A stretch of 64,000 bases of DNA, from positions 96,001 through 160,000 of the forward strand of contig CAWKAR010000028.1 of the NCBI GenBank assembly GCA_963847625.1, read 5' to 3'. A model generated the notes under the pieces. The model was not told the DNA's origin, did no database searches, and was given only the letters and a program-made list of their open reading frames with translations. Within the stretch, counting starts at the first letter, position 1. Each line of letters starts with the position of its first letter. The DNA is from a candidate division FCPU426 bacterium. GTDB lineage: Bacteria > Oederibacteriota > Muellerivitia > Muellerivitales > Muellerivitaceae. This document shows positions 5,953 through 61,453 of the stretch, piece by piece. A program made the translations under genes and the position numbers.

Positions 5953-7989
5953 ATGCCGATAAATCAAAACCGACACCTCACCAGGTATATTCTTCTTATA
6001 TTTCTAGCCTTTTCAGTAAAACCTTGCTGGGCTTTAACGGCCGGTAACCAGGGTATGGATTTCTGGCTGGCCTTTCCGGACAGCTACAACAACACGATTA
6101 ATGCCACCGCAAAACAATTGTTGGTCACCAGCTTGAACTCGGCTGCCGGAACGGCCCAGATTCCCGGCCTTTCCATTTCCGTTCCCTTTTCGGTGCCGGC
6201 AGGGGGCATGACCGTTGTGACTCTCCCTCTCACCGCCAGTGTCACGCAGCTGGACGGCGTATCCCAACAGGGAATCCATCTGACGGCGACCAATAACGTC
6301 GCGGTTTTCGGTTTGAATTACATTCCCGCCGCCACCGACGGCTACCTGGCCCTTCCCACGGACGCCCTGGGCGTTACTTACATGGTTTCGACATACCAGG
6401 TGGATGACCTCGACACCTCTCCCACCGTCGACAACGGTTATTCCCTCTTCACGATCGTGGGGGCGGTGGACTCCACTTCGGTGACCATCACCCCCTCGGT
6501 GACCGTCGGTTCCAGGACCGCCGGTATCCCTTATGTTATTACTTTGAACTCAGGGGATACTTACCAGCTGGCGGCCACGAATATGGGGGACGACTTGAGC
6601 GGCAGCACGATCGCCTCAAGTAATCCGGTCGCGGTGTACGGGGCCAATGTGGCCGCCTATATGCCAACCAGCGTCTACCAGGCGGCCAACAGCCTGGTGG
6701 AACAACTCTGGCCCCTTTGCGATTGGGGTTTGACTTTTTTCACCGCGCCTTTGGCCACAAGATCGAACGGGGACACGATCAAGATCACGGCCTCCGCGAA
6801 CAACACGAATGTCTTCCTCAACGGCACCCAAGTGGCGGTCCTGAACCAGGGCCAGGTTTACCAGCAGGAAGTAATCGTGGCCTCGCAAATCACATCCAAC
6901 AACCCGATTTACGTGGTGCAGTATTCCAACAGTTCCACCTTTGACAACAACACGAACGCCGACCCCAGCATGATGTCCATTCCGCCCGTAAACGATTTTG
7001 ACACGGGATACCTGGTGGCCGCGCCCGTCACCGGAGGGGCCATTACAACCCCCTTCTCCAGCTACGAGAATATCGTCGCTCCCTCGGCGGTCGTGGGTTC
7101 CATTTACCTGGACGGAACCCTCATTCCCACTACGGTTTTTTCTGCCATCGGCTCCAGCGGTTACTACAGCGCCGTTGTGCCCGTGCCACCCGGCCCCCAT
7201 CAGTTGACCGGGGACGGAGTGACCCGGTTCGGGGTGGTCGCCTATGGTTTCGGCTTATATAACCCCCCCGCCAATCCCGGCTATGACGCCTACAGTTATC
7301 CCGGCGGGCTTGTCCTCTGCTCCAACCTTCCCACTCCGACCCCCACGCCCACGAGGACCCCCACTTCCACGCCGACGGTGACTGTGACCCCGACTATCAC
7401 GCTCACTCCCACGCCTACGAACTCGCCAACCATTACATCGACGTCCACCGCGACGCCGACCCCGACGGACACCCCGACCCCCACGATCACCGACACCCCA
7501 TGCGGATATCCCGGCCTCACCTGCACCCCGACGATCACCTCGACCTCCACCTCCACCCCCACCGGCACTCCAACGCCGACCGTAACCGACACCCCGACAT
7601 TCACTTCCACTCCGGCCTCCACGGACACTTCCACCCCGACTTCCACCTCTTCGGCCACTTCCACCCCAACGAACACTCCGACTGCGACAAACACTCCCAT
7701 CCCCGAATGCTTTTACGTCGACAAGAACGTGTTTCAATCCGGCCAGGCGTCCGTTACCATCACTTTCTGCCTGCCCAATGCGGGTAATTATTCCTTGAGA
7801 ATTTACAACTCGGCCGGGGAGCATATTAAAACCCTGGCCGACGGTTACTTCACGCCCTCCTCCTCCTCCCAGGCCTATCCCTGGGACGGAAAGAACAAGT
7901 ACGGCGATACTTGCGCGAGCGGGGTTTATCTCATTTACCTGGTCACACCCGTCGAGAAAAAACTCGCCCGCGTACTCTGGATGCATTGA
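5953..7989 (+). CDS. Secreted IgGFc-binding-domain protein with Thr/Pro linker and FlgD-Ig-like CTD (subtype I)
   Basis: G-x-[18 protein letters not shown], GDTYQL...DLSGSTI and EQLWP...WG motifs; ~125-aa TPT linker; [13 protein letters not shown]...WDGKN...CASGVY. Start moved to ATG 5953 because 5842-5905 is IS DNA. Confidence 0.85.
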
Positions 7990-8059
7990 ACCTTTTTTCT
8001 TTTCGTTTTTACCGCCTCACAGCCGAAAATTTTCGTAAATCCAGACTGGAAAGATCATC

Positions 8060-16134: not shown

Positions 16135-16827
16135 TTATTTATTCACTGGTGGCGCTTTTATAAAAGAAACAAATCTAGAACCATGAGTAGTAGTTTTCTT
16201 TGAAAGTGTGTCAGCACCCATTACATGGAGACTTTCCTGACCAACTAATCCCTTTGCGTACAAATCTTTCCAAATTATTCTATAAAAGTCTTCCCGATTC
16301 TGAAGTTCCGGAAAAGCTTTTTCAATCATATCGGCAAGTCCACCAATCTGATAATTACGATCCCCCGGCTGACGCCCAAACCATCCCTGGGGGTCATCGG
16401 CCAAGTCTAATATTTTTAAATGCCAAACACTAAAAGTATCCACATAACTTAAAAATATTTGTTGTAGTGACCTATCAAGGTTATGAGAGATTCCCGAATT
16501 TATTATTGCGTTTTTAAGAGCGTCAATTTTTTCATGTTGGTTATTCGATACCGCAATTCGAGATGCCTGAATCACTGAATCAATGAACGCCTCATTGCTT
16601 TGCAATTCTTCTAACCGGCCAACATGTGCTTTTAATACCTGAAACGCTTGAGCTAATTGTTCCATCCATTCAGCGCGTCTTCTTTCCAGGGGTGGGGCAA
16701 TAATAGCGTTGAATATTTCTAAAGCGGGGCCACCTATTCCAGGTATTGCGCTCACTACCGCTCACGCAATTAGATGCACTGTGTCCCCCGGAGTACCGCT
16801 AGGCGCTTTAAGATTTGATTCTGTCAA
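16135..16827 (-). pseudogene. Hypothetical protein with an in-frame TGA near the N-terminus (or shorter CDS from GTG 16755)
   Basis: The frame continues upstream of the track ORF: TTG 16827, MTESNLKAPSGTPGDTVHLIA*AVVSAIPGIGG. The TGA is at 16762-16764. TTG lies 1 nt after the DUF4238 stop, with GAAGG upstream. Confidence 0.6.
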
Positions 16828-16828
16828 A

Positions 16829-17914
16829 TTAGCCTTCTTTACTTTTATTTGTTTTCAAATCCTTTTCCTTTATCTTTTTTATCATTTCCACTATATCTGC
16901 CGGAACATCGATTTTACGGCCAAAAGCATCCCGGGATATAAATGAACCATCTTCAAATCCGACAGTTGTTTGGCCTCCGTAGTTCCAAATTTCATTTTCA
17001 GGCGGAATCAAAACCTTGGCTATCTCTTTCCAAGTAAAAATCTCCGGATTAAGCCAATCTTTATCTGCCGCCGCTAAAAATTTTGAAGCTTGGGTTTTGA
17101 AAAAATAATTAATTGCCATTACTTGCTCTGTTTTTAATTTACGGACTTGGATTGTATTGTTTGTCATAAATATCGTTTCGCCGGAAAATCTTGCATTCGT
17201 TCTGGGGATTAAGGGATCAACCCCAGTTGGATCCTTTCCATATTCCAGGTTAGTCAGAATTAAACATTTATTCATATCCAAAGGAAATACCGTTTGGGAG
17301 CCCTTAAAAGCTATTGATGGTTCATCTGGATTCGTGTTGAAAGGATGATTTGGTGGGCAAGCAATATTAAAAATAGTTACCGGATGATCCGAAAGGATAA
17401 ATTTGACTGATGAATTTTCAGCGGATACGACTTCCCTAATTGCCTCAGACCACATTACACAATGGCTGTTTCTAAGGGAAAGCATTTCAGACATTAACTT
17501 GTTTTGGTTCAAATTCGGGAAATGGTTCTTAATCCATTGAAGGCCTTTTGGTGTACGAAGTTTTTGGGCATCTAAATATTCAAAAAGTTGCTTGAAGTGG
17601 TGGTGAAGGGTTGGATAATCATTTTGGGCCATTGCCCTAACAGCCAATGCACCCCTGTTGTCAATTTCCCCGAAAAGAAATTTTTCTATACTATCGTCGA
17701 GCTGAGAAAAAATATGTGTCGTGTACAAATCCCTTTTCTTAAAGCACTGTGTTGGGACACTAGTTGTGTATTCGCCGATTTTAATTTTTTCATGACTTGG
17801 CAATTCTTTTATAAGAGGGTCCAGATTGCGGCAATGATACGACTGTTCTCCAGGGAGGATAAAACCCTTTTGGTGCCATTTTGGAACGTAATGGTTTTCG
17901 TGGCTTTGTTGCAT
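16829..17914 (-). CDS. DUF4238-domain protein
   Basis: N-terminal NHYVPKWHQKGF, DLY, IEKFLFGEID, QKLRTP, FILSDHPV and FPLD motifs; AT-rich. Confidence 0.75.
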   Translation of the reverse strand: MQQSHENHYVPKWHQKGFILPGEQSYHCRNLDPLIKELPSHEKIKIGEYTTSVPTQCFKKRDLYTTHIFSQLDDSIEKFLFGEIDNRGALAVRAMAQNDYPTLHHHFKQLFEYLDAQKLRTPKGLQWIKNHFPNLNQNKLMSEMLSLRNSHCVMWSEAIREVVSAENSSVKFILSDHPVTIFNIACPPNHPFNTNPDEPSIAFKGSQTVFPLDMNKCLILTNLEYGKDPTGVDPLIPRTNARFSGETIFMTNNTIQVRKLKTEQVMAINYFFKTQASKFLAAADKDWLNPEIFTWKEIAKVLIPPENEIWNYGGQTTVGFEDGSFISRDAFGRKIDVPADIVEMIKKIKEKDLKTNKSKEG

Positions 17915-18174
17915 TAGTTGTCTCGAATAAATTCGTTAAAACATTATTTTTCAAAAACATATATGCGTGTTCGGAATTAGGTCTGAAAAAAGAAAAATCA
18001 TCATCAGACCAAAACCAAATCATATTATGCCACCATTCATACCAGTTAGGACTGAGGTACCCGAAGTAAGAAACTAAAACTTGAGATTATGGATAAACCG
18101 ATTCCGATTTTGTGCTATTTTTGGCGTATAAAAAATTGGATATTATCTTTATAGATAGGTAAACAAATGAAATG

Positions 18175-19224
18175 CTGAATTCAACCAGTAAGTGCAACAC
18201 CTTGACTAAAGACCTGCTCCGGCGTTTTGAAACGAAGGCACTTGCGAGGACGATGGTTTAGGATCCGTTCCACGCGTCGTACATTCGCTGGGGTTATAGT
18301 AGCAAAATCCGTTTTCTTGGGATAGAAGCGACGAACAAGACCTGCAGTATTTTCAACACAACCTTTCTCCCAACTGTGGAAGGGCAAACAAAAGAATGAA
18401 CGAGTGCCTGAAACACGATTCACCTGGAGATGTTCGACGTTTTCGGAGCCATTGTCGTATGTGATGGTACGGCGGAGGCCTTTTGAAATCCGAACCAACC
18501 GACGGTTGATTGCGGCTCTAGTGTGGAAAGCTGATTTTTGAGGTAGCCAAGCCAGTTTCACCAGACGACTTTTGCGCTCGACCATAACCAGAAGTGAGGG
18601 TTTGCTTTTCCGGGAGATGATGGTGTCGGCCTCCCAGTGCCCGAATTGCTGTCTTGTTTCAACGATAGCTGGTCGTTGGGTAATGGGAGTACGTTGAGGA
18701 ATATGGCTTTTGCGATGTTTTTGAGTGTGCCAACGTCGCAAACGTTTTCGATGGGCCCGGGCTAGATGAGGAATGAGGTTTCGAGCTTCGCAGTAGATGA
18801 ATTGATAGATGGCTTCATGGGAAACGGAAAGTTTTGGTTTCTCCCGGCGAAGAAAACCGGCAATTTGCTCGGGCGAGAGTCCACGAGGTATTTCTCGCAG
18901 TACTAAACGGCGAATCTCAGGATTTTTAAGCCTTAAATGAGTACGTGAAAGACGGTTTCGGTGTTCTGCACGCATGTGAGCTCTGGCGGGCAGGTAGCGG
19001 CAAGATCGTATAGGAGGGGCGTTGCGCTTCAGTTCTCGGGAAATGCTGGATACATCACGGCCCAGACGGCGTGCGATTTCCCGAAGGGAGAGGCCTTCAG
19101 CATTCCAAACTGAAATTTCTTCACGTTCGGCTAACGACAGATGCTTGTAGGATGATTTCATAGCACTTAGGATAACCCCCGGGTTCTGCCGGGTCTAAGT
19201 GTTGCACTTCGTTATTGAACTGGG
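18175..19224 (-). mobile_element. IS30-family element (copy type 1)
   Basis: ~26-bp imperfect IRs CTGAATTCAACCAGTAAGTGCAACAC and rc CCCAGTTCAATAACGAAGTGCAACAC; exact ends +/-2 bp. Confidence 0.88.
18181..19161 (-). CDS. IS30-family transposase
   Basis: YKHLSLAER HTH, SISRELKRN, HEAIYQ, GHWEADT, TYDNGSEN, SWEKGCVEN and LNHRPRKCL. Confidence 0.95.
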   Translation of the reverse strand: MKSSYKHLSLAEREEISVWNAEGLSLREIARRLGRDVSSISRELKRNAPPIRSCRYLPARAHMRAEHRNRLSRTHLRLKNPEIRRLVLREIPRGLSPEQIAGFLRREKPKLSVSHEAIYQFIYCEARNLIPHLARAHRKRLRRWHTQKHRKSHIPQRTPITQRPAIVETRQQFGHWEADTIISRKSKPSLLVMVERKSRLVKLAWLPQKSAFHTRAAINRRLVRISKGLRRTITYDNGSENVEHLQVNRVSGTRSFFCLPFHSWEKGCVENTAGLVRRFYPKKTDFATITPANVRRVERILNHRPRKCLRFKTPEQVFSQGVALTG

Positions 19225-19227
19225 GAA

Positions 19228-20049
19228 TTGATATTAACTTTACTGTTCTTTTTATTGACTCTTATGAGACCCAACTGGATCAAGGCGGACAGCTTTGATT
19301 CGGAAAACTATTGGAATTTTAATGGTGCATTAGGAGACCATCAAGATATTGGTCTATCTTTATATCTTTTTAAAGATGGAACTTTAAAGGGGGACTATTT
19401 TTTTGATGAAAATGAAAAACCTATCAAATTAGAGGGAAAATGGAGTCCCATAATTAAATCGAATAAGGATTCGAGTTATCATTCATCTGATTTTAATTTT
19501 GTATCTCAGGAATTATCTGATACAGGCAAAGCACAGGCCACTTTTGAAGGCCAATTTAATTCGAACGATGATCGTGATGGGCTTAAAGGGGTTCGAATTG
19601 ATCTAAAAAGCGGTCAGAAAATATCTTTTAAATTAGAACTTGAATCAATCACTCCTCAAGATTTCGGCAAACGATATGAAGCGGCAGACTCCAAAAACGA
19701 TTCAGAATTCGATAATTTCGCGAAAGAATTAAAGGGTGAAATACTTACCGGTAAAAAAGAAGAAGTGGCACAAAAAATTGTTTATCCGTTAACCGTTTGT
19801 ATAAGAGATAAGGAAATCGAAATAAAAAACAAAAAAATATTTGTCAGAAAATATGATCAAATCATTACACCGGATTTTATTAAACTTATTAATAAAGCAC
19901 ATCCTTATCACATGTTTTGCAGGAATGAGGAGGTCATGTTTGGGGAGACTGGTGCCATCTGGCTTGCTTATAACAGCGGATTGAAAGTTGTAGCAATCAA
20001 TAACTGTTATCCTGATGCTCAATTAAAAATATTGGACCATGGAAAATAA
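19228..20049 (+). CDS. Hypothetical exported protein, AT-rich, between two IS30 elements
   Basis: 273-aa ORF with hydrophobic N-terminus. It starts 3 nt after one IS end and stops 5 nt before the other; the native start may have been cut by the IS. Confidence 0.7.
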   Translation: MILTLLFFLLTLMRPNWIKADSFDSENYWNFNGALGDHQDIGLSLYLFKDGTLKGDYFFDENEKPIKLEGKWSPIIKSNKDSSYHSSDFNFVSQELSDTGKAQATFEGQFNSNDDRDGLKGVRIDLKSGQKISFKLELESITPQDFGKRYEAADSKNDSEFDNFAKELKGEILTGKKEEVAQKIVYPLTVCIRDKEIEIKNKKIFVRKYDQIITPDFIKLINKAHPYHMFCRNEEVMFGETGAIWLAYNSGLKVVAINNCYPDAQLKILDHGK

Positions 20050-20054
20050 ATTTC

Positions 20055-21107: not shown

Positions 21108-21219
21108 CTTTTAATAAATAAGGTGTCTCATTCATCACTTTGTTAATTTTTCCGAGAACTTCTTATCGGATGCCAATCTTTTTTTCAGGGCAATTAAAAA
21201 TAAGAAATCGGTCCAGAAT

Positions 21220-21469
21220 TTAATCGGCCCAATAGGTAACAGGTTTATCCAAAAACTCCTTCAAACCAATTCCCTGCCCGCCCACGCTTAAGCAGTGTTT
21301 GGGTTTAAAGGCTTTTGAAAAGGCTTGTAACCCGGGCAAAACGGTTTCCCCCAAGAGCCGCCTTTCACCTCGATCGCGGTCAATTCCTTCCCTTTTTTCA
21401 ATAAAAAATCCACCTCCTGGTTTCGCTCCCGCCAATAATAAACTTCCATAGCCGTCCCCAGGCATCCAT
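21220..21469 (-). pseudogene. 3' fragment of an AAA-ATPase/DUF4143-type gene, frameshifted (copy 1)
   Basis: EVYYWRERNQEVDF...AIEVK PD-(D/E)xK-like tail; 2-bp insertion relative to copy 2 (CCAAGAGCCG vs CCAAGCCG); no ATPase domain upstream. Confidence 0.75.
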
Positions 21470-24590: not shown

Positions 24591-24605
24591 GGGAGCCTTT
24601 ACAAT

Positions 24606-46320: not shown

Positions 46321-46475
46321 TGATCCGTCCAGGGTGAGGAAGATATAGTTAATTTTCCCACGATCTTTATAAAAAGGGCGTTTCTTTCCACACCCTCTAG
46401 ACGGCAAAATGGCCGATTTAATCCAAAAATAATGCAAAAAAATGAGGCTAAAAAGGCCGGTTTTATTGGTTTTTT
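46321..46475 (-). promoter_or_regulatory. Conserved 5' leader/promoter region, copy 2
   Basis: Aligns with 34889-35045; complementary segments 46325-46336 and 46391-46404. Confidence 0.7.
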
Positions 46476-46528
46476 AGGATGAATATGGGTTTTGAGATTC
46501 TTGAAAAGCAGATCCATCGAAAAACGAA

Positions 46529-46607
46529 CACTTCGATACGCTTCGCTACTCAGTGCAGGCTTGGGGTCGCCACGCTCCTAAGCGCGCCGATTGGGGCTGC
46601 TCCTCGC
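46529..46607. repeat. REP-like palindromic remnants
   Basis: CACTTCGATACGCTTCGCTACTCAGTG and GTCGCCACGCTCC...CTCGCA resemble common extragenic palindromes. Confidence 0.4.
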
Positions 46608-46683
46608 ATGCCGACCTACCATTAAGCTTTTAATGAGGTCGGTATCGTACCGATCTCAATTTATCTTTATAGATGATCGGCAC
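46608..46683 (-). repeat. Tandem hairpin element, copy C (two units, inverted relative to A and B)
   Basis: ATGCCGACCTACCATTAAGCTTTTAATGAGGTCGGTAT (38 bp) + GTACCGATCTCAATTTATCTTTATAGATGATCGGCAC (37 bp). Confidence 0.72.
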
Positions 46684-46740
46684 AATGACAGCTTAGACCG
46701 AATCGCGAAGTCGGGGGGCAAAGTACGGACAAAAACCTGG

Positions 46741-49557
46741 TCACTTAATCAGGATGATCCTCTTCCACTTTGTTTCCAAGGGCTCGGAAAGCTTGAGCAA
46801 ATAAACCCCGCTGGCGCAGGGGTCGTTAAACTTGTTCGTCCCGTCCCAAAAGTAGGTTTGGGTATAAGAGGACTCAAGATATTGGTCGTCCAGGGTTTTG
46901 ATATGCTCCCCGGCCGAGTTGTAAATTTTCAGGGAAAAGGGGCCCGGGAAGGAGGAATTGCCGACGTAAATGGAAACCGGGCCCTGGCCTGGTTGCAGCA
47001 GGTTCTTATCGACATAAAAAACGTTAAAATAAGGAAGGGGGGTGTTTGTCACGGTCGGCGTGAACGTCACCGTGGGAGTATCCGTGATGGTTGGCGACAG
47101 GGTGATAGTCGGAGTATTGGTCATGGTCGGAGTATTGGTTGGCGTAGCCGTAGGCGTAGCGGTGAGGGATGCCGTAGGCGTCATCGAATCCGTCGGGGTC
47201 AGTGTAACGGTGGGACTATCCGTCACAGTAGGTGTATTCGTAATGGTAGGAGTATTCGTAAAGGTTGGCGTTGATGTCGGCGAAGCTGTAGGCGTAGCGG
47301 TGAGGGATGCCGTAGGCGTCATCGAATCCGTCGGCGTGGGGGTATTAAAGGCAGTCACGTCAAACTTCGCCACAAAAGCGTCCCCGCTTCCGCCATAAGC
47401 CGTCTGATTGGCCCCGCTGGTCGTTGGAAAATTCCCGTTGGTATATCCTGTCACATAGGCATTTCCCGACCCATCCACCGCGATGCTTTGGCCATAATCG
47501 GTGTCGTTCCCGCCCAGATACGTCGAATAGGACAAAGCGTTCCCCGTGGCGTTCAGTTTCACCACGAAAGCGTCATAAAAACCGCCAGCGTAGGCTGATT
47601 GAAAAGCCCCGCCGGTCGTGGGGAAATTTCCGCTGGTTTCACCCGTCACATAAGCGTTCCCCGATCCGTCCACCGCGACGCCATAGGCTTCATCGTCCCC
47701 GCTCCCGCCCAGATAGGTCGAATAGGCCAGGGCGCTTCCCAAAGCATTCACTTTCGCCACAAACGCATCCGCGGTACCCCCGCCGAAAACCGTCTGGTAG
47801 GCTCCGCCGGCCATGGGAAAATTTCCGGTGCTTAACCCAGTCACATAAGCGTTTCCCGACCCATCCACCGCGATACCCCGGGCCGTGACAGAAGCGCTCC
47901 CGCCCAGATAGGTCGAATAAGCCAGGGCGCTTCCCAAGGCATTCAGTTTCACCACAAACGCGTCCGAGATACCGCCCCCGTAAGCCGTCTGGCAGGCCCC
48001 GCCGGTCGTGTGGAAACTTCCGGTGGTATATCCCGTCACATAAGCGTTCCCCGACCCATCCACGGCGATGGCATTGCCTTGATCGTCCGACGGCCCGCCC
48101 AGGTAAGTTGAATAGACCGGGACGCCCGCGGCATTCAATTCCGCCACAAAAGCGTCATAACCGCCGCCATAAACCGTCTGATAGGCCCCGCTGGTCGCGG
48201 GAAAACCACCGGAAGTCACTCCCGTAATATAAGCGTTCCCGGAACCATCCAACGCGATGCCATTGCCCCAGTCGTTCCCGTTCCCGCCCAGGTAAGTCGA
48301 ATAGACCAGGGCGTTTCCCGCCGCATTCAGCTCCGCCACAAAAGCGTCCTCACCGCCTCCCCCGTAAGCCGCCTGGTAGGCCCCGCCGGTGGTGGGAAAA
48401 CTTCCGGTGGTCGATCCCGTGATATAAGCGTTTCCGGCCCCGTCCACCGCGATGCCGTTGCCCCAATCGTTCCCGCTTCCGCCCAGATAGGTCGAATAAA
48501 CCACCGCGTTGCCCGAGGAATTCAGTTTCACCACAAAAGCGTCCTCCGTGCCGCCGAAAGCCGTCTGTTCGGCCCCGCCGGTCGTGGGAAAATTCCCGGT
48601 GGTGTAACCCGTCACATAAGCGTTCCCCGGGCCATCCAACGCAATGCCATTGCTCCGATCGCCGCCGGTCCCGCCCAGATAGGTCGAATAATCCAATACC
48701 GGGTCGATCACCAGGGGAAGGGCCTTGTCGTAAACCCCCAGCTTAAATCCAACCTGCCCATGCCCCTTTAACGAGTAGCGGCCCTCCACTGATATCCGTT
48801 GGCTGTTCTTCATTTGGTACGCTACTGGAGCCCTAAAGGCCACTTCCCCTTGGGCCATATGGAAAATCAAGTTCCCTTGGCCGTCCACTTCCGCTTTGTG
48901 GGCACCCTGGTAGCTGAATCCGATCACGTTCGTATCAGCCCCTGGAGAAACCACAAAGTCGTACTCGAGTTTTCCCTGTGCGCCGTAATACACCATGTCG
49001 ATGCCGGGATAGACGCCCCTCATCTTCACTTTGGAGTAGCGGGCAATATTGGTTCGCCACTTGGAACGGTCATTCCCGATGAAGTAATTGCTCCTCCCGC
49101 CTGCCTCTTCCATCCCCTCGAATTCGGACTTCCGGTTCCCACCCTCGAACCTCAAGCGCAAAACCTCATGAGAGGCAGTTAGGAGTGAGGAGTGAGGAGT
49201 TAGGAGTGAAGAATGATTGAAATGGCCACTTTTCAACACAAACACCGCCTCGGCGGGCGTCAGGTAAAGGGCATAGCCATTTCCACGGGATACAAACCGC
49301 ACTTGTGGGTCGTATTGGCCCTGGTTGGGCTCGAAGGAAAGCGGAATGCGCCCGTAATTCCGGTTGATTTTCAGAAGCGCGGCCTGATCCAGCAGGGCAA
49401 TTCCGGAAAAAACACGGGATTTCTTCGGGGAGAGGGAAAAACTCTTGCCAATCCGGTTCACTTGGCTGGTGGGAACCAAACCCATTCCAAAAACCGTGAT
49501 GACGCAGGCAAAAAAACCAGGGTAAAAAAGCCGGATTCTATTCCGGAATACATTCAT
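46741..49557 (-). CDS. Secreted SBBP beta-propeller protein with Thr/Pro linker and CTD (subtype I), no passenger domain
   Basis: Same N-domain, regular YSTYLGG repeats, [13 protein letters not shown]...CASGVY. Confidence 0.9.
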
Positions 49558-49602: not shown

Positions 49603-52425
49603 TTATCTGATGAGGATGACCTTCTTCAACTTGGTTGCATAGGGCTCACCCAGCTTGAATATATAAACCCCGCTGGCGCATTCGTCGTTGAACTTGTTCG
49701 TCCCGTCCCAATGATAGGACTGGACATAGGAATAATCGAGGTAGCGTTCGTCCAGGGTTTTGATATGTTCCCCGGCCGAGTTGTAAATTTTCAGGGAATA
49801 AGGGCCTGGATAAGCGGAATTGGCCACGAAAATGGAAACCGGGCCCTGGTCAGGGTTGAACACGTTCTTGTCGATGTAAAAAGCGTCGAAATACGGAATA
49901 GGGGTGTAGGTCTCGGTCGGAGTGAACGTCACCGTGGGGGTAGGGGTATTCGTCAACGTTGGGGTAACGGTCGGCGTGCTGGTCATCGTGGGCGTGGGAG
50001 TGGGGGTCGGAGTCGGGGTAGATGTGTTGGTGACCGTCGGAGTGGGTGTCAGCGTGGGGGAATTGGTATCGGTCGGCGTCGGGGTAACGGTCGGCGTGTT
50101 GGTCGGGGTGCGGGTGGCAGTGGGGCTTGAGGTCTGGGTGGGAGTGCTGGTGATTGTCGGTGTGGACGTCACCGTGGAACTGACAGTGTTCGTTGGCGTC
50201 GGGGTTACGGTGGGTGTATTCGTCGTCGTGCGGGTGGCAGTGGGGGTTGAAGTCTGGGTGGAAGTATCCGTTACCGTCGGGGTCAGCGTCACCGTGGGGG
50301 TTGAGGTTGGAGTGGGAGAGTTGGTCGGTGAATTGGAGGGTGTGAGAGTCGGGGTGTTCGTGGGGGTGTTGCATTGCATCATCGCCGTCACCGCGTTGGA
50401 AGTGACCGCCGCGTCGCCATCGGCGGTGATGGCGGCCTGGTTGACATAGGTCGCGGAACCGGAAGTCGCGCAGTTGACCGTACCCCACCAGGTAACGGCA
50501 CCCTGAAGATTGTAATTGGTGCCCGGGAAGGACCATTTCAGGGTGCTTCCCGTCTGGGAGAAGTTGACGGTCCCGCCCCCAATGGTGACACCGGCGTTGG
50601 ACTCGTTATGGCCCCCCGGGAAGGTGATCCCCACGGGAATCACATCCGTAAGAACGGTATTATTCACTTGATCGGCGGTCTCCATTTTTAAATTGGAATA
50701 ATAGTCAGGGGCCGCCGTCGCGTCCGACTGCCAGCCTTGCTGCCAAGTCCCCGAGCAGAGGTTCGAAAATGGCGAGTTGTCCGTGTAAACATAGACATCG
50801 TACAGGGATGGGTTTCCCCTCTGCCAAACATACTCCGCGATGACCACCGATCCGGCAGAGACCGTCATGACGGCCCTGACCGTGTACCAGACGCCCGCCT
50901 GGATCGTGACCGGCTGGGGATAAGTGGTAATGCCGCCCGTTGCCGGGTTACAACTGCCGCTGCACGCGTTTCTCTGGATAAAGATGTAACCGGGGTTGTT
51001 GTCCACGGATATTCCCGCGAAATAGGCCTGGGTCACCCCCCCATTGATGTTATAAGCCAGGACCATATGAGCGTCGGCGGCGGCTGAGGCTCCTTGAGCC
51101 CCTTGGGCGGTCACGGGAATCTGCATATCGCCTTCCTCAACATAAGTCCCGGGGCATAAGTTAACGCCGCCCGGCCGCAAATAAAGCGGATAATCCCCGC
51201 CGTTCGTGGCGTAATTTGAATTCGCTAAAAGATAATGATTCCCCTGGGTGTCGGACTCGACCGTAAAACCGCCGGTCGTCTGGCTGGGAATATCCTGGTA
51301 GGCGAACCCGTCATAGGTGGTTCCCCCCTCGACGGTGCCGGTCGTGTCGTTATCGTAAGAATCATAATACTGCAGGCTGAAACCGTTGACGCTGTAGGCC
51401 AGGGCATAGGTGACGGCCTGACCGCTCGTGAGCTGGCCGCCGGAAGGGATCTGGGACTTGACCAGCGAGAACCCCCCGCCGCCAATCGTCGAGTTGGCGA
51501 TATTAGAGGTTTGGGAAACTACCGTACCATTCAGGCTGAAATTCGCCGTGTTGCTGATGGTCCCGCTGGTTTCGTTGACCCTGGCCAGGAACCAAGCCTG
51601 CCCCTGCACTTCCGTCGAACCGCCCGGAACCGTCCAGGTCAGCAGTGACCCGGGCGTCGTGCCGGACATGGATGTCCCCGTGGGGGCCCCCGGCCCCATT
51701 TGAACCACCGTAACGCCATTGGGCACCGTATCAGTGACCGTCCCCCCGCTGGTGTCGTTCACGAAATCATAATTGATCGTGAACAGCACCAGATCGCCGT
51801 TGGCCGCGCTTCCCCCTTCGGCGGTCTTCTGGACCGAGAGGATGGTGGGGGGCGGAATCGGAACGGTGAAAGAGAGGGCGTATTCCCCCGAAACGGAGGT
51901 GTTCCCGCCATAACCCTGCTGGGGTTGTTGTCCGCACTGGATGTTGTACATCCCCCCCTCGACGATCAGGTTATAGGCGCCGCCGTAACCCGCGTCGGAG
52001 GGCATGGTCAGGTTCCAAACGATTTGCTTTCCGCAAACCCAGTTGTTACTGCTGGGGTTGTCCGCAATTCCCGTGTACCCGATGTTGCTGGTACTGGAAG
52101 GGTTGACTTCGTCAACATTGATACCATCATTGTCAACCAGGAATTCCTGCCCTTTGACGGGGCAGCTTCCCACCGTGGTCGCCAGGCTGCTGACAGCCAC
52201 CGTCCACTTGGAATTGCCGTAACCGTTGATGCAATAGTTGATGGTAAGGGTAAAGTTCTGGTTCGCCGCAGGGCTAGCCGGGTTCATCGCCACGCTGACA
52301 ATGGAGACCCCTTGTTGGGCTTGGGCCTGGACGGCCGGCAGTGAGCAAACCACCAGCAAAAACAAAAACCTCGCCCATCTGCCGCGAACGGCTCTAAAGG
52401 ACAAAATGGATTTTGAGATCACCAT
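49603..52425 (-). CDS. Secreted protein with DUF11-like repeats, lectin-like beta-sandwich, Thr/Pro linker and CTD (subtype I)
   Basis: Signal peptide ending AQA; K(T/S)...G-x-x-V-x-(F/Y)...D-x-(V/I)P-x-G DUF11-like motifs; [13 protein letters not shown]...CASGVY. Confidence 0.82.
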
Positions 52426-54753: not shown

Positions 54754-56775
54754 ATGAGAAAAATACTCAACCTTTTCGGCCCTATCGGCAAAAAGTTCAA
54801 CTGGCCTTTCTGCGTTACGGGCGTTATTTCGGGGGCCGTGGGAGCCCGCCTCTGGTCGGGATCCCAGGACCAACATTGGCTTTCAGGCGCTCTTTTCCAG
54901 GCCCTGTCCTTATTCCTGATATGGAAAGCCTTTCCCAATCGGGATTCCCGCCTTCCGGAAGCCCGGGAGTCGTTCTCCCCAAAACCCCCGAAAAAAAAGG
55001 GGAAATCACGCCTCTCTTGGAATGATCTGTTTCCCCTGGGATCAGTCCTTCTTTTCAGCGTAATCGGGCAACTATTTTTTAGTTTTCGCTTGACCATCCT
55101 GGCCTTGGCGTCCTGGGGGGTGGCCCTTTTCATGTTTTCGCAGCTTCCCAAGGCCGGTCCCGCGAAAACCTGGACCCCGGGACCGGTAGCCGAAAAAAAG
55201 CTTCTCGCGCTGGTCCTCCTGGCGGCCGCCCTCATGCGGTTTCCATTCATTGGCCAGCACATCACCGGCCTGCAAATTGACGAGTCGAATTGCATCTGCG
55301 ACGCATACAGTTTCCTGGATGGCTCCCTGAATTCCCCTTTTGTCACGAGTTGGGGCGGCAACGAATCCTTCCATTTCTGGTGGCTCTCGATGTTCATGAG
55401 GATTTTCGGCGCAACCTGGGTTACGGCCCGGCTCTTCTCGGCGGTTGTTTCCATGGGCGCCCTTTATGTTTTTTACCGCTGGTGCCGCTTATTCTTCGGA
55501 TTCCTCCCTTCCCTCCTGGCTGTTTTCTTGATGTCCATCGGCTGGTGGTACCTCTTTTACAGCCTTTCCCCGTTCCAAAATATGCTGGTGGTTTTTTGGG
55601 AGATCCTGGCTATTTACTTCCTGTCCAAGGCCCTCAAGGAAGGGCGCAAAGCCGATTACTTGTGGGCGGGCCTCTTTATCGGCTTTTGCGAGTTGGAATA
55701 CCTGCCGGGGCGGCTCGTGGTTTTCATGGCTGGTTTCGCGTTATTGGGAATCTGGGCCGTGGAAGGCAGGGCCTTTTGGAAGAACCACGCCCAATACCTG
55801 GCCTTGGGCATCCTCTCCATGTTATGGCTGGCAGGCCCATTCATTGTTTACGGCATCCATAACCCATCCGCCATTGTGAGCCGGGCCAAGGAATTGAGCC
55901 TCCTCGCCGAAGTCCAACGGACGGGGCATTACAGCCTCATACTCAAGAGGTTCTTTTGGACTTTCCTGTCTTTTCTAAACCACAACGAGGGCATTGACCC
56001 GCGGTTTTGCGCCAACGCGTCCCAGTTGGACCCGGTTTCCGGGGGCTTGATGGTATTCGGACTTCTTTTAGCTTTGGCTCATTGGCGGCGGAGAGCCTGC
56101 TGGTACGCCCTGGGCGGGCTTTTCTTCGGCTTGGTGGCCAACACCTTCGCCATCCAGGGCCCCAATCCCGACCCTTCTTTCGTCAACGGCCAGCGCTATT
56201 TCGTCGTCTTCCCGTTTCTTTTTTTCATGGCGGCTTGGACCCTGGACCGGGTGGCCGGCGTTTTTCCCGATTTCAACCCGGCCATGAAACGCACGGGCAA
56301 GGGCTTGTTGGCTTTGTTGGTTGCTTTCGCCCTTATCTGGAACATTTACATCTATTATTTTTCCTTCAGGAATTTCAAGGTGGAGGGCCCCAATTATTGG
56401 GATGCCCTGGGTTTCAACCATATCCAAGTGGCTGATTACCTGAGGACCCAATGCCCCCGATGCCACGCATTGATGGAAATAGAGTACAGTTCCAGCACCG
56501 TCTACGTGTTGACCCACGATTTATTCACCTTCAACAGGCTCGGGGATTATTTTCCGGTCCCCATCCGGCAGAAAATAACGAAAAACGTGCTTTTCGTCAT
56601 CCCGCCTTCGGAATACCCGGAACTCCAGGAAAAATTGCGCCAGACCTATCCCAAGGCAGTTTGGGGCTCGCTCAAGGACCCGAAGGACAATGTCAACGTA
56701 TTGACGGTGGAAGTACCCAAGGAAGACATCCAAGCCAAGCAGGAAGGAGTTTCCCTGGAAGGTGCGCTCGAATAA
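54754..56775 (+). CDS. GT39/ArnT-like (PMT_2) GT-C glycosyltransferase
   Basis: LMRF...GLQIDE motif after TM segments, FG-x-x-x-x-TARLFSA, many TMs and a C-terminal periplasmic domain. Confidence 0.78.
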   Translation: MRKILNLFGPIGKKFNWPFCVTGVISGAVGARLWSGSQDQHWLSGALFQALSLFLIWKAFPNRDSRLPEARESFSPKPPKKKGKSRLSWNDLFPLGSVLLFSVIGQLFFSFRLTILALASWGVALFMFSQLPKAGPAKTWTPGPVAEKKLLALVLLAAALMRFPFIGQHITGLQIDESNCICDAYSFLDGSLNSPFVTSWGGNESFHFWWLSMFMRIFGATWVTARLFSAVVSMGALYVFYRWCRLFFGFLPSLLAVFLMSIGWWYLFYSLSPFQNMLVVFWEILAIYFLSKALKEGRKADYLWAGLFIGFCELEYLPGRLVVFMAGFALLGIWAVEGRAFWKNHAQYLALGILSMLWLAGPFIVYGIHNPSAIVSRAKELSLLAEVQRTGHYSLILKRFFWTFLSFLNHNEGIDPRFCANASQLDPVSGGLMVFGLLLALAHWRRRACWYALGGLFFGLVANTFAIQGPNPDPSFVNGQRYFVVFPFLFFMAAWTLDRVAGVFPDFNPAMKRTGKGLLALLVAFALIWNIYIYYFSFRNFKVEGPNYWDALGFNHIQVADYLRTQCPRCHALMEIEYSSSTVYVLTHDLFTFNRLGDYFPVPIRQKITKNVLFVIPPSEYPELQEKLRQTYPKAVWGSLKDPKDNVNVLTVEVPKEDIQAKQEGVSLEGALE

Positions 56776-57613: not shown

Positions 57614-58024
57614 GGCTTTTTCACCGCGCCATCATACCAAATATCCCTTCGGGAAACCCGTTGGCGCTTTCTTTTTGATCCTAAAGGCATCATCAAACCG
57701 CTTATTCGGCCTCCACAAGCGCCGAAAGGGCTGCCCGGCAGATCAAGTTTAGAAGAGGTTTGGGCATGTAAGCGCGACACGACGACAATATCTAAAAGTT
57801 AGTCATTGAATAAAATGATGAATAGTTTTTTAGTTAACCGAAACACCCTATTTGTTGCCCTTTAAGGGTTGGAACTTTGACCAGTCCTCATTTAAGCGTT
57901 AAAATATATGACAAAACAACTCTCTGCCAACGGATATCTTCGTTGATTACCCTTTTTCCAGCACAATATTTAACACATTGCAGTGATTTTACTAATCACT
58001 ATTTCAATCGGTGAAGGTACGAAC

Positions 58025-61000
58025 TTGAATAAGTTTTGTTTTGGGCGCCAAACTCAAAATGGATCATGGGTAAAGGAAATCTTCCTGATTTCTTTTTTAA
58101 CGCTTGGATTTCTTCCGCCCGCCGCGTTGTCTCAAACTTATTTCGGCAACCAGAGCGCCGCCACCTCGGGACTTTCAAGGCCCATGAACAGTTCGAGTTA
58201 TCAAACATCCCTGCGCTTCACGGCCCGTAACTCAAACACCTTGACCCAAATACGCCTGCTGGCCCAAGGATATGGAACCTGCCCTCTTTATACTGTTGGA
58301 TTGCAGGCTGATGACGGATTAGGCAATCCCAGTGGAACCTTCCTGGCCAACAGCGTGCCTTCTCCTTTTTCTTCCAGCTATGGCTGGAATCTCTTTCCCA
58401 TGACTTCCTCCTACACCCTTGTTCCAAGCACGGTTTACCATATTGTGGTGCAGTTTTCCTCAGGGACCCTGGATGGTAACGATTATGGTTCTCTTAATCC
58501 TGGAGATACACCCAATACCCATCTCATCCCCTTGGATCAATTCCAGGACAACCAGTTGGAAGTCCTTTATTACAACGGGTTGGTTTGGTCCCCTCAAAGC
58601 GCCGCGCCCATATTCGTGCTGGATTTCAGTGATTCCACCGAGTATGGAAACCCCTTTGACAATCTGAACGGAAACATTTACGGCGGCCAATATATCGGTG
58701 AAAGTTTCACGCCCAAATCGAACATACAGGTCAACAAAGTTGGTTTTTACGTATACCGCACCGGGATTCCAGCCGACAACCTCAATTATGTTCTCTTGGA
58801 CACGACTCAGGGTGTCACGATCGACTCCGGCATCGTCGGCTCGTCTACCACCATACCCCTTTCCTGGGCCTGGGTGGATGTGAACATGACGGGGAGTTAC
58901 ACCCTTTATTCCTCCGACACTTACCTGCTTTACTTGAAGTCATCCTTGAGTTCAGTGGGCAATTTTTACTATGTCAGCGATCCCGAGTCGGGCGGAGCCG
59001 TTAATAATTATGATGGCCTCACTTACGATTCCGTTAATTCCTTTGCCATGGTCTCGACGAATTCCGGCGGCTCTTGGGGCGCTAACACGAGTCAGGATTT
59101 GACTTTCCGGTTCACCTTGGACACCAATCCCACCGCCACCCCAACGGTCACCTCGACGGTCACTCCCACCCCGACCCTTCCGGCTCCCAACCTTTCCCTG
59201 ATTGAGAACGTTGTCACGGACTCGGCTGCGGCGAACGGCATGCTCTTGTTCAGAGTGGATTGTAACTTCGGGAATAGCATCGGGGTGACCCTCACCTCTT
59301 CGGTTCCAGTCAATACCACCCTCGTGGAGCTGAGTACTACAGGAAGCAGCGCTGGGAGTGGAGCCGGGAGCGCGGTGACCTGGGTTGTCTATAACGGAAC
59401 CGCAACCCCACAACAAGATATTTCGGTTTTCATGCTTTTAAACGTTAATTCGGCTGTCACTACAGGAACCGTCATCTCAAACGCAGTCACAGGTACCGCC
59501 ATTAGCGTTGTATCGGCTGCTTCCGCCGCGGCTACGGCGGTCGTGGGGCCGAATCTCAAGATCAACAAGACGGAATCGGAATCCACAGGATACTTGGGGG
59601 ATACGGTCACTTACAGCCTGCCTTGGACCGTCACCGGAGAAACCTTGGACTTTTTCGATTCCTATGACTCCCTAACCGGTGGAACGACGACTATTACCGG
59701 TTACGACGGAACTCTCTATACTCCCGAGGCGGGGCCCATCAGCTGGAATATTGTCGCGACGAGCGTGAATAACTACCTTTCGGCGAACGCACCCTCGGCC
59801 ACTGGCTGTCTCCTACGCAGCGCCCCCACAGTAAACCTGTACGGAAATTACGCCGTGGTGGGTGACATCTATTTGGACCCTTCCAATCTCATTCCCAATG
59901 GAGGAATTGTGGTCGCCTCGGACGCGGCCGTTACTAACGCTTATATCGCGGCCCTTTCGGGAACCGGCAGTCCAGGGAATTTTTATCTTGAAAAAATCAG
60001 TGCCGGCCTTCCGACCACCCTCGCGATGGTGAACAACACCAGCCTGCCTGTCTCCGTGGAGGTGGGAAAATGGTGCTCGTTGGAGATTTACGTAGCCAGC
60101 AGCGGCGTAAATGGTAGCCCTCTAACCTTTTACGCCAAGATCTGGCCTCCGGGTCAGGTCCCGCCGCAGGGTTGGGCAGTGACGGTCACCGACACCACTC
60201 CCATATCCTCCAGCGATACTTACAACACGGGATGGTTAGCCGGAGGCAGCAGCCCCATGTCAAGACTTAATTCGTTTGATAATTTACAGGTTTACGTGCC
60301 CAACGCGCCCGTCAGCCTAAACATGGAGGATACCCTACCTACAGGTATGACTTACGTAAGTTCTTACCCTCTGGCCACATTCCATTCGCCGTTGGTTTCG
60401 TGGAATTCCACGGCTACGGTTTTCGGGGGTGGGGCCACTTACAGCATTGTGGCGCAGGTTTCCACCCCGTGCCAGTCCCACATCGTGAACCACGCGATCA
60501 TCACTGCGGCCAACGCCTCCACGGGTATTTCCAATCCGGTGACCTTGTCGATCTCATGCCCGAATACCCCCACCCCGACCTCAACCATTACACCTACCAA
60601 AAGCCCGACGGCCACGATTACACCCACTCCCACTAATTCCCCGACACCAACCAATACATCTACTCCGACAATTACACCCGCGAACACCCCGACTATTACA
60701 CCCACCCCAACGCTTACTTTGACGCAAACTCCTTCAAGCACACCCTCTAATACTCCAACAGCTACACCATCACCCACGAACACTCCAATGAATACCGGAA
60801 CAAACACACCCACGAACACACCGACAAACACTCCCACTTCAACAAACACTCCTATCCCGACACCCACCGACACTCCGGCGAACACCCCTACCTATACATC
60901 CTCCAACACAGCTACCAATTCCCCAACCAACACCACTACTTCCACGCCTTCCAATACCCCCACGATTACTTCAACAAACACACCAACCCTTACGCCAACT

Positions 61001-61453
61001 CCGACCGGCATCTTAACGTTTACTCCCACGCCCACTTGGAGTTCGACCCCCACCACGACTGATACGTCCACAGATACTCCAACCTTTACGAATACGCCCA
61101 CTATCACCATTACACTTACCATCACGCCGGCTTTCACACCGACGGAGTCCCCCACCGCAACACCCACGCCGAACGCAGCCCTTTACTTGGACCAGAACTT
61201 CTTCAACCCCCTCCAACAGCCCCTGGGAATGGAAATGCGTGTGGATACGGCGGGCGAGGTAAAAGTGTTGGTTTACGACATCGCGGGCGAGGAAGTAGTG
61301 AAGCTTTTGGATCAATACGAGAACGCCGGCAACTACCGGCTTTCCTGGGATGGGCGAAACAGCTCTGGCGACATGGTGGGGAACGCGGTTTATTTCATCG
61401 TCATTCAACAGCCTTCCGGCAATTTGGTAAGAAAAGTCATTGTCCTGAGATAA
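58025..61453 (+). CDS. Secreted protein with DUF11-like and lectin-like domains, long Thr/Pro linker and divergent FlgD-Ig-like CTD
   Basis: Central region parallels the 49603-52425 gene (FDSYD vs YDSYD); CTD VYDIAGE...WDGRNSSG...VY...KVIVLR; start uncertain (57983 or TTG 58025). Confidence 0.82.

What the first reader, a model, noticed from the sequence alone, without database searches (positions are those of the whole stretch)
5953..61453. Candidate surface-glycoprotein export system: eight unrelated cargoes share a Thr/Pro stalk and a T9SS-like C-terminal sorting domain, with co-located GT-C transferases
Seen: genes at 5953, 26692-30179, 30341, 35216, 41845, 46741, 49603 and 58025 have different N-terminal domains. 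All end in a TPT-rich segment plus a ~95-aa CTD finishing in a basic/hydrophobic strand (K-I/V-x-L-x-K/R in most). Two GT-C enzymes lie among them. Established: T9SS type A CTDs have YPNP...Y-x-x-x-G...G-x-Y...K-I-x-K motifs, and Thr/Pro linkers are commonly O-glycosylated. Inference: these genes form a dedicated secrete-glycosylate-display pathway making a mucin-like surface coat in a poorly studied lineage (FCPU426-like). No secretion machinery is visible in this window.
Basis: partly seen in the sequence, partly recalled or inferred. Interest (0 to 1): 0.8.

Follow-up and report, generated by a model that had tools for sequence, protein, structure and literature searches.

The report
Stalked cargo, stripped-down type 9 secretion
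Eight genes here belong to a family of about 120 proteins in one uncultured bacterium, most with a threonine-rich stalk and all with an export tag, which are likely secreted by a type 9 system that seems to lack its usual motor and anchoring enzyme; the two neighbouring sugar-transferase genes are chance neighbours, and an unstudied enzyme family elsewhere in the genome is a better candidate for sugar-coating the stalks.

Summary
The eight genes are real. Each has a (T-x)n stalk and a ~92-aa C-terminal domain (CTD) whose best sequence and fold matches are T9SS CTDs (PorU, PorZ). They are not eight unrelated cargoes: four are DUF7948/SBBP paralogues, and one is a frameshifted S53 peptidase. They are 8 of 126 CTD ORFs in a genome that encodes SprA (over cut-off) and 17 PorV-like barrels. 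A window CTD docks on the stand-alone PorV in prediction (0.67, best control 0.00). No PorU-type C25 peptidase was found (0 of 17 family genomes; controls ring); GldL/M/N were not found (no positive control). The GT-C link fails: the genome has 89 GT-C genes, 1.3 are expected per 64 kb, and they are not enriched beside cargo genes, whereas PorV genes are. The same-genus relative lacks 30 kb of the cluster. Heads and CTDs are swapped across the stalk. A DUF2298 operon elsewhere tracks stalks across the phylum (80 of 81 vs 0 of 18 genomes, but only 1-2 evolutionary events). Glycosylation is untested. This scan had already noted the motor-less T9SS on other DNA of this genome, and DUF2298 operons in other genomes.

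The parts
5842..7989 (+). Cargo 1: likely start 5953, hydrophobic leader, IgGFc-binding domain, Thr/Pro stalk (aa 493-623), main-class CTD (7711-7986)
   Evidence: (PF17517 E 4e-55); orthologue at the same place in G051
21783..22835 (+).
22972..24285 (+). Predicted lipoprotein with 140-aa Thr/Pro tether and NHL propeller, no CTD; 63% identical to the previous gene
26692..30212 (-). Cargo 2: S53 (kumamolisin-type) peptidase + NHL propeller + stalk + DUF11 + main-class CTD; split into 29112-30212 and 26692-29115 by a one-base frameshift near 29166-29171
   Evidence: intact 1069-aa orthologue in G051 carries a different CTD class
30341..34888 (-). Cargo 3: DUF7948 + SBBP propeller, Gly-rich domain, long stalk, 'PYPNP'-class CTD
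35071..35166 (-). Relic 3' end of a 'PYPNP'-class CTD between two cargo genes, 88.5% identical to the end of cargo 5
35216..39211 (-). Cargo 4: DUF7948 + SBBP propeller, two repeated domains between three stalks, main-class CTD
39504..41543 (-). TMTC-type GT-C + TPR protein, one of 17 paralogues; DD motif intact, but His in place of the Arg that the other 14 aligned copies have in the 'DRY' motif
41845..46437 (-). Cargo 5: DUF7948 + SBBP propeller, NHL propeller, stalks, a further folded domain, 'PYPNP'-class CTD
46741..49557 (-). Cargo 6: DUF7948 + SBBP propeller, 110-aa stalk, main-class CTD
   Evidence: positional orthologue in G051 is interrupted by another gene
49603..52425 (-). Cargo 7: DUF11-like/lectin-like head (lead only), 160-aa stalk, main-class CTD (49606-49881, the one modelled)
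   Evidence: (scores 0.85 or less); G051 gene at the same place keeps the CTD (82%) with a different head (25%)
54754..56775 (+). PMT_2-type GT-C, one of 72 in the genome
   Evidence: (PF13231 E 1.5e-9)
57983..61453 (+). Cargo 8: head partly related to cargo 7, 207-aa stalk, third CTD class (TIGR04183 22.9 bits, cut-off 23; PF13860 over cut-off)
   Evidence: absent at this place in G051
16146..46740 (.). 30.6-kb variable segment (IS30 genes, DUF4238, Fic, two stalked lipoproteins, cargoes 2-5, the TMTC-type gene) absent from the syntenic locus of the same-genus genome G051

Best explanation
The eight genes are ordinary members of a 126-member family of tagged proteins in this genome, likely exported by a reduced type 9 secretion system (SprA plus PorV-like barrels) in which no PorU-type peptidase and no Gld motor were detected, and the two GT-C genes between them are chance neighbours. 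Shown: gene anatomy, family size, SprA and PorV genes, CTD likeness to T9SS CTDs, lack of GT-C enrichment, swapping of heads and CTDs between relatives. Predicted: a Sec signal takes the protein to the periplasm; the CTD folds as a T9SS-type beta-sandwich and binds a PorV barrel at SprA; the window cargoes have no PorV gene of their own and so would use a shared stand-alone PorV (C19:29852). Inferred: without PorU the CTD is probably not cleaved, so cargo would stay on the surface non-covalently on a PorV-like barrel, as PorU and PorZ do, or be released whole; the (T-x)n stalk would hold the head (lectin-like, propeller, protease) away from the membrane and also act as the recombination joint that shuffles heads and tags. 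Inferred and untested: the stalk Thr residues are O-glycosylated in the periplasm by a general system that also serves the stalked lipoproteins; the best candidate is the DUF2298/TIGR03662 operon with GT2 genes (C13:31.8-44.9 kb) plus the TIGR03663 gene (C19:40972), not the window's GT-Cs. The energy source is not identified.
For: CTD profile vs PDB: best hit PorU CTD, E 2e-8 over positions 2-88, ahead of FlgD (partial, 8-78); 38 of 48 aligned CTDs hit TIGR04183 at E<=0.05. Model pLDDT 96.7; Foldseek's only E<=0.001 match is PorZ; VIA-align top row is PorU, Z 11.0, rmsd 2.9, 89 aligned. SprA 236 bits, cut-off 200, in 92 of 99 phylum genomes. 18 PorV-family matches in 17 genes; 10 of 17 lie within 2.5 kb of a CTD gene on the same strand, 1.4 expected, 0 of 3000 shuffles. 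CTD-PorV model 0.67 vs best of 3 controls 0.00; mark reached by 116 of 157 solved and 2 of 215 mismatched pairs; runs agree in >=90% of contacts, partner pLDDT 80-82. lpxD/C/A/I and lptFG-like genes next to sprA indicate an LPS outer membrane (read from sequence). C25: 0 of 17 family genomes, 8 of 10 outgroup genomes ring. GT-C: 89 genes; 6 of 89 adjacent to a CTD gene, 6.0 expected; 33% of windows hold two or more. Shuffling: (9 of 15 multi-member head families use more than one CTD class). DUF2298: 80 of 81 genomes in the 18 stalk-bearing families, 0 of 18 in families f3-f7, which have 0-5 stalk motifs yet all have SprA.
Against: Most window CTDs score below the curated cut-offs (as whole proteins none passes TIGR04183, two pass PF13860), and generic Ig folds reach Z 9-10 just under PorU. 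Solved PorV-CTD complexes exist, so the complex pass may be from memory. In F. johnsoniae the energy chain is needed to pull carrier and cargo out of SprA (PMC10994853 passages), so a motor-less system needs an unknown substitute; the GldL/M/N searches had no positive control. TMTC-type genes show a weak tilt towards cargo genes (4 of 17 adjacent, 1.1 expected, p 0.02 in one of twelve tests; p 0.05), and one outside the window stays among CTD genes in G051. The DUF2298 pattern is only 1-2 changes on a SprA tree, has soft spots (G097: DUF2298 but 2 motifs; G039, G036: motifs not clearly above the reversed-pattern control), and I could not show a GT-C fold for DUF2298. No secretion, surface location or glycan has been observed.
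Confidence: 0.68

Rival explanations
1. One reading: the locus is a dedicated secrete-glycosylate-display unit in which the two co-located GT-C enzymes glycosylate these stalks, as GT39 Cbes_1864 does for CelA in Caldicellulosiruptor bescii.
For: The TMTC-type gene is on the same strand between cargoes 4 and 5; TMTC-type genes are adjacent to CTD genes in 4 of 17 cases vs 1.1 expected; 64-kb window counts of TMTC and CTD genes correlate (rho 0.33, overlapping windows). Precedent: PMC6151902 passages. JGI names many homologues 'protein O-mannosyl-transferase'.
Against: No enrichment for all 89 GT-Cs or for the 72 PMT_2-type genes (4 of 72 vs 6.7). 16 of 34 stalk-rich genomes have no TMTC-type match and 5 of 9 stalk-free genomes have one. 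Within the family neither GT-C count tracks stalk density (rho -0.06 and 0.18, n=17). The TMTC gene and four cargoes are absent from the syntenic locus of G051. Ten other best matches of the PMT_2-type gene have no CTD gene within about 1.5 kb. The window TMTC copy lacks the conserved Arg.
Confidence: 0.1
2. The system is a complete T9SS whose motor, ring and sortase are too diverged for the HMMs, or missing from a 94%-complete assembly; cargo is then cleaved and anchored as in Bacteroidota.
For: SprA aligns only in patches and barely passes its cut-off, so partners could be more diverged. No positive control for Gld searches. C25 matches exist in other families of the phylum (8 of 31 searched, 7 strong).
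Against: GldM 0 of 31 family genomes, GldN 0 of 48 phylum genomes, C25 0 of 17 with working controls: incompleteness cannot explain this. The three FGE-domain proteins do not look like GldK (two of 258 and 280 aa, one with an internal membrane segment, judged by eye).
Confidence: 0.12
3. The CTD is a FlgD-like Ig module that binds cell wall, LPS or other cargo and is not an export signal; the proteins stay periplasmic or leave by another route, and the stalks are plain flexible linkers.
For: 39 of 48 CTDs hit PF13860 FlgD_ig; FlgD chains rank second in sequence and Foldseek searches. Related domains occur internally in two PorV fusions and in a doubled C-terminus. Stalks also occur on lipoproteins without CTD.
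Against: C-terminal in 124 of 126 ORFs; full-length match to PorU/PorZ CTDs including the last strand that FlgD hits lack; strong genetic pairing with PorV barrels; CTD-PorV model with controls at 0.00; SprA conserved phylum-wide and followed by a CTD gene in 3 of 3 family genomes viewed.
Confidence: 0.1

Closest known systems
Type A CTD cargo of the Bacteroidota T9SS (PorU 6ZA2, PorZ 5M11, NucA 8GLK; SprA-PorV 6H3I/8GL6)
   Same: N-terminal hydrophobic leader, passenger, C-terminal beta-sandwich with a near-terminal Lys/Arg; SprA translocon and PorV-family barrels in the genome; predicted CTD-PorV binding.
   Different: Host lies outside named phyla on the GltX tree; CTD is longer (~92 aa vs 72-75) and mostly under cut-off; no C25/PorU, GldL, GldM or GldN detected; 17 PorV-like genes, many with C-terminal extensions; most cargo has a (T-x)n stalk (94 of 124).
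Type B CTD / PorP-SprF cognate pairs of Flavobacterium johnsoniae (PMC12618676, abstract read)
   Same: Cargo genes genetically paired with their own shuttle barrel; orphan cargoes share one shuttle.
   Different: Here the paired barrels are PorV-family (PorP_SprF PF11751 not over cut-off) and the CTDs resemble type A; the window's eight cargoes are all orphans.
Caldicellulosiruptor bescii CelA linkers and GT39 Cbes_1864 (PMC6151902, passages read)
   Same: Alternating Thr/Pro linkers in secreted multidomain proteins; a lipid-donor glycosyltransferase is required for their glycosylation.
   Different: There one GT39 gene lies in the cargo locus of a monoderm; here 89 GT-C genes are scattered, co-location is at chance level, and no strong PF02366 match exists (best 50 bits, an ArnT-like protein).
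Eukaryotic TMTC1-4 O-mannosyltransferases (PMC7801869, passages read)
   Same: Membrane GT-C domain with DD motif in the first loop, followed by TPR repeats.
   Different: No DUF1736 match in 15 of 15 aligned copies; SHKSYRP and KE motifs not conserved; substrate unknown; thousands of bacterial homologues in many phyla.
Haloarcula hispanica Agl22/Agl23 (TIGR03663), known here through PMC11182771 passages; original paper not seen
   Same: [quoted passage not shown]
   Different: Bacterial diderm host; DUF2298 is uncharacterised; its acceptor is inferred from co-occurrence only.

Membership tests
T9SS (Bacteroidota type) | SprA/Sov translocon | tested here: met
   TIGR04189 236.1 bits, cut-off 200, 2013 aa; 92 of 99 phylum genomes match
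T9SS (Bacteroidota type) | PorV-family shuttle | tested here: met
   NF033709 172 bits, cut-off 90; below the PorV equivalog cut-off (70 vs 250); only PDB hit is PorV 6H3I_F, E 3.5e-9
T9SS (Bacteroidota type) | GldL/GldM (PorL/PorM) motor | tested here: inconclusive
   No match in G000 or, for GldM, in 31 family genomes; no genome known to have them was searched
T9SS (Bacteroidota type) | GldK/GldN (PorK/PorN) ring | tested here: inconclusive
   GldN 0 of 58 and 0 of 13 genomes, no positive control; FGE-domain proteins do not resemble GldK by eye
T9SS (Bacteroidota type) | PorU sortase (C25 peptidase) for CTD cleavage and LPS anchoring | tested here: not met
   PF01364 0 of 17 family genomes; 8 of 10 outgroup genomes ring
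T9SS (Bacteroidota type) | PorZ, SprE/PorW, Plug, PorG | not tested
T9SS type A cargo | CTD at the extreme C-terminus with beta-sandwich fold | tested here: met
   8 of 8 window genes, 124 of 126 genome-wide; model and fold matches
T9SS type A cargo | Score over the TIGR04183 / PF18962 cut-off | tested here: not met
   best window protein 22.9 vs 23 bits; 38 of 48 isolated CTDs match only at E<=0.05
T9SS type A cargo | Sec signal peptide | tested here: inconclusive
   hydrophobic leader in 7 of 8 ORFs by a Kyte-Doolittle proxy, the eighth on the upstream piece of the split gene; no signal-peptide predictor available; SBBP paralogues could be signal-anchored
T9SS type A cargo | CTD-dependent export and binding to PorV in cells | not testable with these tools
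   only a predicted complex
TMTC-type GT-C (gene 39504) | GT-C fold, DD motif, TPR tail | tested here: met
   D32-D33 invariant in 15 of 15; TPRs; the top 13 Foldseek rows are GT-C enzymes (STT3/AglB, ArnT) but none reaches E 0.001, model pLDDT 68; Atlas 0.96 to GT39/PMT_2-named clusters
TMTC-type GT-C (gene 39504) | DUF1736 loop and SHKSYRP / KE / ERxxY motifs of TMTC1-4 | tested here: not met
   no DUF1736 match; motifs differ, and this copy lacks the Arg (equating 'DRY' with ERxxY is my inference)
O-glycosylated Thr/Pro linker proteins | Glycan on Thr | not testable with these tools
   needs glycoproteomics
GT-C superfamily (DUF2298 proteins, outside the window) | GT-C fold | tested here: inconclusive

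The most novel reading that the evidence does not exclude
A whole candidate phylum runs a minimal type 9 pathway (SprA + many PorV barrels, no Gld motor, and in this family no sortase) that displays ~120 interchangeable heads on glycosylated (T-x)n stalks held by uncleaved CTDs; and DUF2298/TIGR03662 with TIGR03663 is the Thr O-glycosylation machinery for those stalks, the same family being present in Haloferax volcanii and Methanosarcina acetivorans, where the O-glycosylation enzymes of Thr-rich S-layer tails were still unidentified in a 2018 review.
Probability: 0.22. Interest if true: 0.88.

Novelty: new variant of a known kind. Interest (0 to 1): 0.6.

Why it matters
T9SS is described as specific to Bacteroidota or the FCB group and as needing the GldLM-KN energy chain to pull cargo out of SprA. 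A lineage with SprA, 17 PorV-like barrels and 29-119 tagged cargoes per genome but no detectable motor or sortase would show which parts are the ancestral core and poses a testable question about energy and anchoring. The window adds evidence that heads and sorting tags are swapped through the Thr/Pro stalk. The negative result matters too: neighbouring GT-C genes mean little in genomes with ~90 of them. The DUF2298 co-occurrence gives a cheap test in H. volcanii of a long-open question, the enzyme of archaeal O-glycosylation.

Tried and rejected
Co-location of GT-C and cargo genes: 12 neighbourhood tests and 2 distance tests; only TMTC adjacency was nominal. Search for one PMT_2-type gene shared by all stalk-bearing genomes: none among 30 of 41 loci from six genomes. 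Fisher test on families for DUF2298 (p 3e-5) rejected as invalid: the tree gives 1-2 events. Taxonomy: GltX relatives at 75-79% carry only 'bacterium' or 'proteobacterium' titles; cluster look-up gave no names; the GltX tree is the quick one, the careful search did not finish. Positive control for GldN: phylum of G099 gave 0 of 13, so it is no control. Sequencing runs over the S53 frameshift: none was listed, so artefact vs real is open; a second split gene (DUF2298 copy, 730 aa + 106 aa vs 841 aa in G043) hints at assembly indels. TMTC profile vs PDB by sequence: no match. Atlas search of cargo 7's head: under 0.9, lead only. Literature: searches listed no paper on SprA/PorV in this lineage; one listed two papers naming DUF2298, neither read; 119 was swamped by 'YYY'. 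Subscription papers and supplements were not seen and may bear on both claims.

Full report
Setting. The window is G000:C28:96001-160000 of a 4.43-Mb, 63-contig genome, 93.9% complete. GltX groups with nine MAGs titled only 'bacterium' or 'proteobacterium' (75-79% identity) on a long stem (0.76, SH-aLRT 100, quick tree) apart from all named rows. The tool's phylum holds 99 genomes in 23 families.

Observation. All eight ORFs exist and end in a ~92-aa domain. Stalks of 80-330 aa in total per protein are 38-46% Thr with strict T-x-T alternation. The heads are not eight unrelated domains: four are DUF7948 + SBBP paralogues (44-66% identity), two are weakly related to each other, one is an IgGFc-binding domain and one an S53 peptidase with an NHL propeller. 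The S53 gene is split by a one-base frameshift near 29166-29171; its orthologue in the same-genus genome G051 is intact. Two predicted lipoproteins in the window carry the same stalk without a CTD; genome-wide, 40 of 59 stalked non-CTD ORFs have a lipobox-like leader against 159 of 2257 background genes (crude pattern).

The CTD family. An iterated HMM finds 135 domains in 126 ORFs; 124 have one within 15 aa of the C-terminus; 94 of 124 have a stalk of 40 aa or more, 51,263 aa in all. The profile's best PDB hit is the PorU CTD (E 2e-8, full length), then FlgD (partial), NucA and PorZ CTDs. The model (pLDDT 96.7) matches PorZ by Foldseek (E 1.9e-4) and PorU by VIA-align (Z 11.0, rmsd 2.9, 89 aligned), with generic Ig folds close behind at Z 9-10. 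Individually the domains are mostly below curated cut-offs.

Machinery. A 2013-aa SprA passes the TIGR04189 cut-off and sits divergently from lptFG-like genes beside lpx genes, followed by a CTD gene. SprA matches occur in 92 of 99 phylum genomes. Seventeen genes encode PorV-family barrels; 10 of 17 lie within 2.5 kb of a CTD gene on the same strand, against 1.4 expected. None of the window cargoes has one, so they would use a shared barrel. The stand-alone PorV (C19:29852) and the cargo-7 CTD give a predicted complex at 0.67 with all three controls at 0.00; the mark was reached by 116 of 157 solved and 2 of 215 mismatched pairs, runs agree in at least 90% of contacts, partner pLDDT 80-82; solved PorV-CTD structures exist, so this shows likeness, not binding. 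C25 peptidase is absent from 17 of 17 family genomes searched, while 8 of 10 outgroup genomes and 8 of 31 other phylum genomes (7 strongly) ring. GldL, GldM and GldN were not found, with no positive control. By the review PMC10202324 (passages), uncleaved CTDs keep PorU and PorZ bound to PorV and PorQ; I infer the same, or release of whole protein, here. By PMC10994853 and PMC12635249 (passages) the energy chain extracts carrier-cargo complexes, so the power source here is an open gap.

The GT-C link. The genome has 72 PMT_2-type and 17 TMTC-type genes. That predicts 1.29 per 64 kb, and 33% of 134 overlapping windows hold two or more. Six of 89 are adjacent to a CTD gene, 6.0 expected. TMTC-type genes alone show 4 of 17 vs 1.1 (p 0.02, one of twelve tests; p 0.05 by distance), PMT_2-type 4 of 72 vs 6.7. 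PorV genes pass the same test decisively, so the test has power. Across 55 near-complete genomes, 16 of 34 with 100 or more TPTxTPT motifs lack a TMTC-type match and 5 of 9 with three or fewer have one. The window TMTC copy keeps the DD motif but has His for a conserved Arg. Its GT-C nature rests on motif, Atlas neighbours and weak fold matches.

The cluster is a hot spot, not a unit. In G051 the syntenic locus runs from cargo 6 straight to the 12361 dehydrogenase: window 16146-46740, with four cargoes and the TMTC gene, is missing, and cargo 8 is missing beside gltX; cargoes 1, 6 and 7 and the PMT_2 gene keep their places. Modules are exchanged at the stalk: the S53 orthologue keeps the head (72-78%) but has a 'PYPNP'-class CTD; the gene at cargo 7's place keeps the CTD (82%) but has a 25%-identical head. 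Nine of 15 multi-member head families in G000 use more than one CTD class, and three 'PYPNP' SBBP genes are interspersed among main-class ones in a nine-row FastTree. A relic CTD end lies at 35071-35166.

A better glycosylation candidate. Looking for enzymes shared by stalk-bearing genomes led to a TIGR03663 gene (234 bits, cut-off 126) beside a stand-alone PorV gene on C19, and an operon on C13: GT2, GT-C-DUF2298 fusion (TIGR03662 345 bits, cut-off 300), DUF2298, two NHL proteins, GT2; G043 has the same core. DUF2298 is in 80 of 81 genomes of the 18 stalk-bearing families (the miss is 63% complete) and 0 of 18 genomes of f3-f7, which have SprA and, in f3, 22 to at least 46 PMT_2 genes but 0-5 stalk motifs. 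It rings in Haloferax volcanii and Methanosarcina acetivorans among 14 controls. [quoted passage not shown] Limits: the negatives form two clades on a 26-row SprA tree, 1-2 events; G097, G039 and G036 fit poorly; I did not establish a GT-C fold for DUF2298.

Verdict. Observation partly confirmed. Export by a reduced T9SS-like system: about 0.7. Stalks O-glycosylated: about 0.6, by analogy with C. bescii (PMC6151902, passages). Window GT-Cs dedicated to these cargoes: about 0.1. It works like a T9SS; full membership is not shown, since PorU is tested and absent and the motor is undetected. Published surveys place T9SS only in Bacteroidetes (10.1101/031039, passages; complete genomes of 2013), and my five searches listed no paper on this lineage. 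The scan had already noted the motor-less system on other DNA of this genome. New variant of a known kind; interest 0.6.

Noticed in passing
window 21783-24285; genome-wide: A second class of stalked proteins: about 40 predicted lipoproteins with a Thr/Pro tether, mostly right after the lipid-anchor Cys, and no CTD. How they reach the surface, if they do, is unknown.
   Followed up: partly
G000 genome-wide: 89 GT-C genes in about 3,500 genes (2.5%), with tandem arrays on C27 and C33; TMTC-type copy number ranges 0-17 within the family.
   Followed up: partly
L224 (G000:C13:31.8-44.9 kb), L212, L242: GT2 / GT-C-DUF2298 fusion (2097 aa) / DUF2298 / NHL / NHL / GT2 operon; second DUF2298 gene split in this assembly; TIGR03663 gene divergent from a PorV-like gene on C19.
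   Followed up: partly
L155:10903-12471, L156:8167-9684, L157: In families f8/f9 a ~510-520-aa GT-C gene sits between sprA and lptFG-like genes; it has no BLAST match in G000 at E 1e-8. sprA next to lptFG is conserved in 6 of 6 loci viewed.
   Followed up: partly
G000:C45:151486-156228 (after sprA): A 1580-aa CTD protein directly follows sprA and is conserved there in G051 and G068; a candidate accessory component.
   Followed up: no
window 5842-7989, 35216-39211; genome-wide: A short Cys-bracketed motif (CGYPGxTC type) interrupts the stalk in two window cargoes; related Cys-bracketed motifs occur in 22 of 124 CTD proteins (loose pattern). Possible disulfide loop, function unknown.
   Followed up: no
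G000 PorV paralogues (C26:27125, C6:24003, C49:47292, C57:76295, C22:62388): Many PorV-like barrels carry C-terminal extensions that by eye resemble OmpA-like, FN3-like or TPR domains; two contain an internal CTD-like domain.
   Followed up: no
nine ORFs on C5, C34, C37, C41, C49, C50: One CTD class has a second, weaker CTD-like match 203 aa before the C-terminus.
   Followed up: no
window 18181-21101, 16135-17914, 25532-26548: IS30 transposase (18181) and a second similar gene with identical copies elsewhere (20121), DUF4238, Fic and low-GC ORFs mark the left part of the variable segment.
   Followed up: partly
window 24756-25350: Short tandem-repeat ORF (CHQECGQFI-type units); a similar DNA repeat occurs many times in G051.
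   Followed up: no
window 2115-3695: Fused AmmeMemoRadiSam B + A gene, both over cut-off.
   Followed up: no
L016, L017, L023, L032, L180: The slot downstream of gltX is variable: CTD genes in 4 of 9 relatives viewed, mobile genes in G051.
   Followed up: partly
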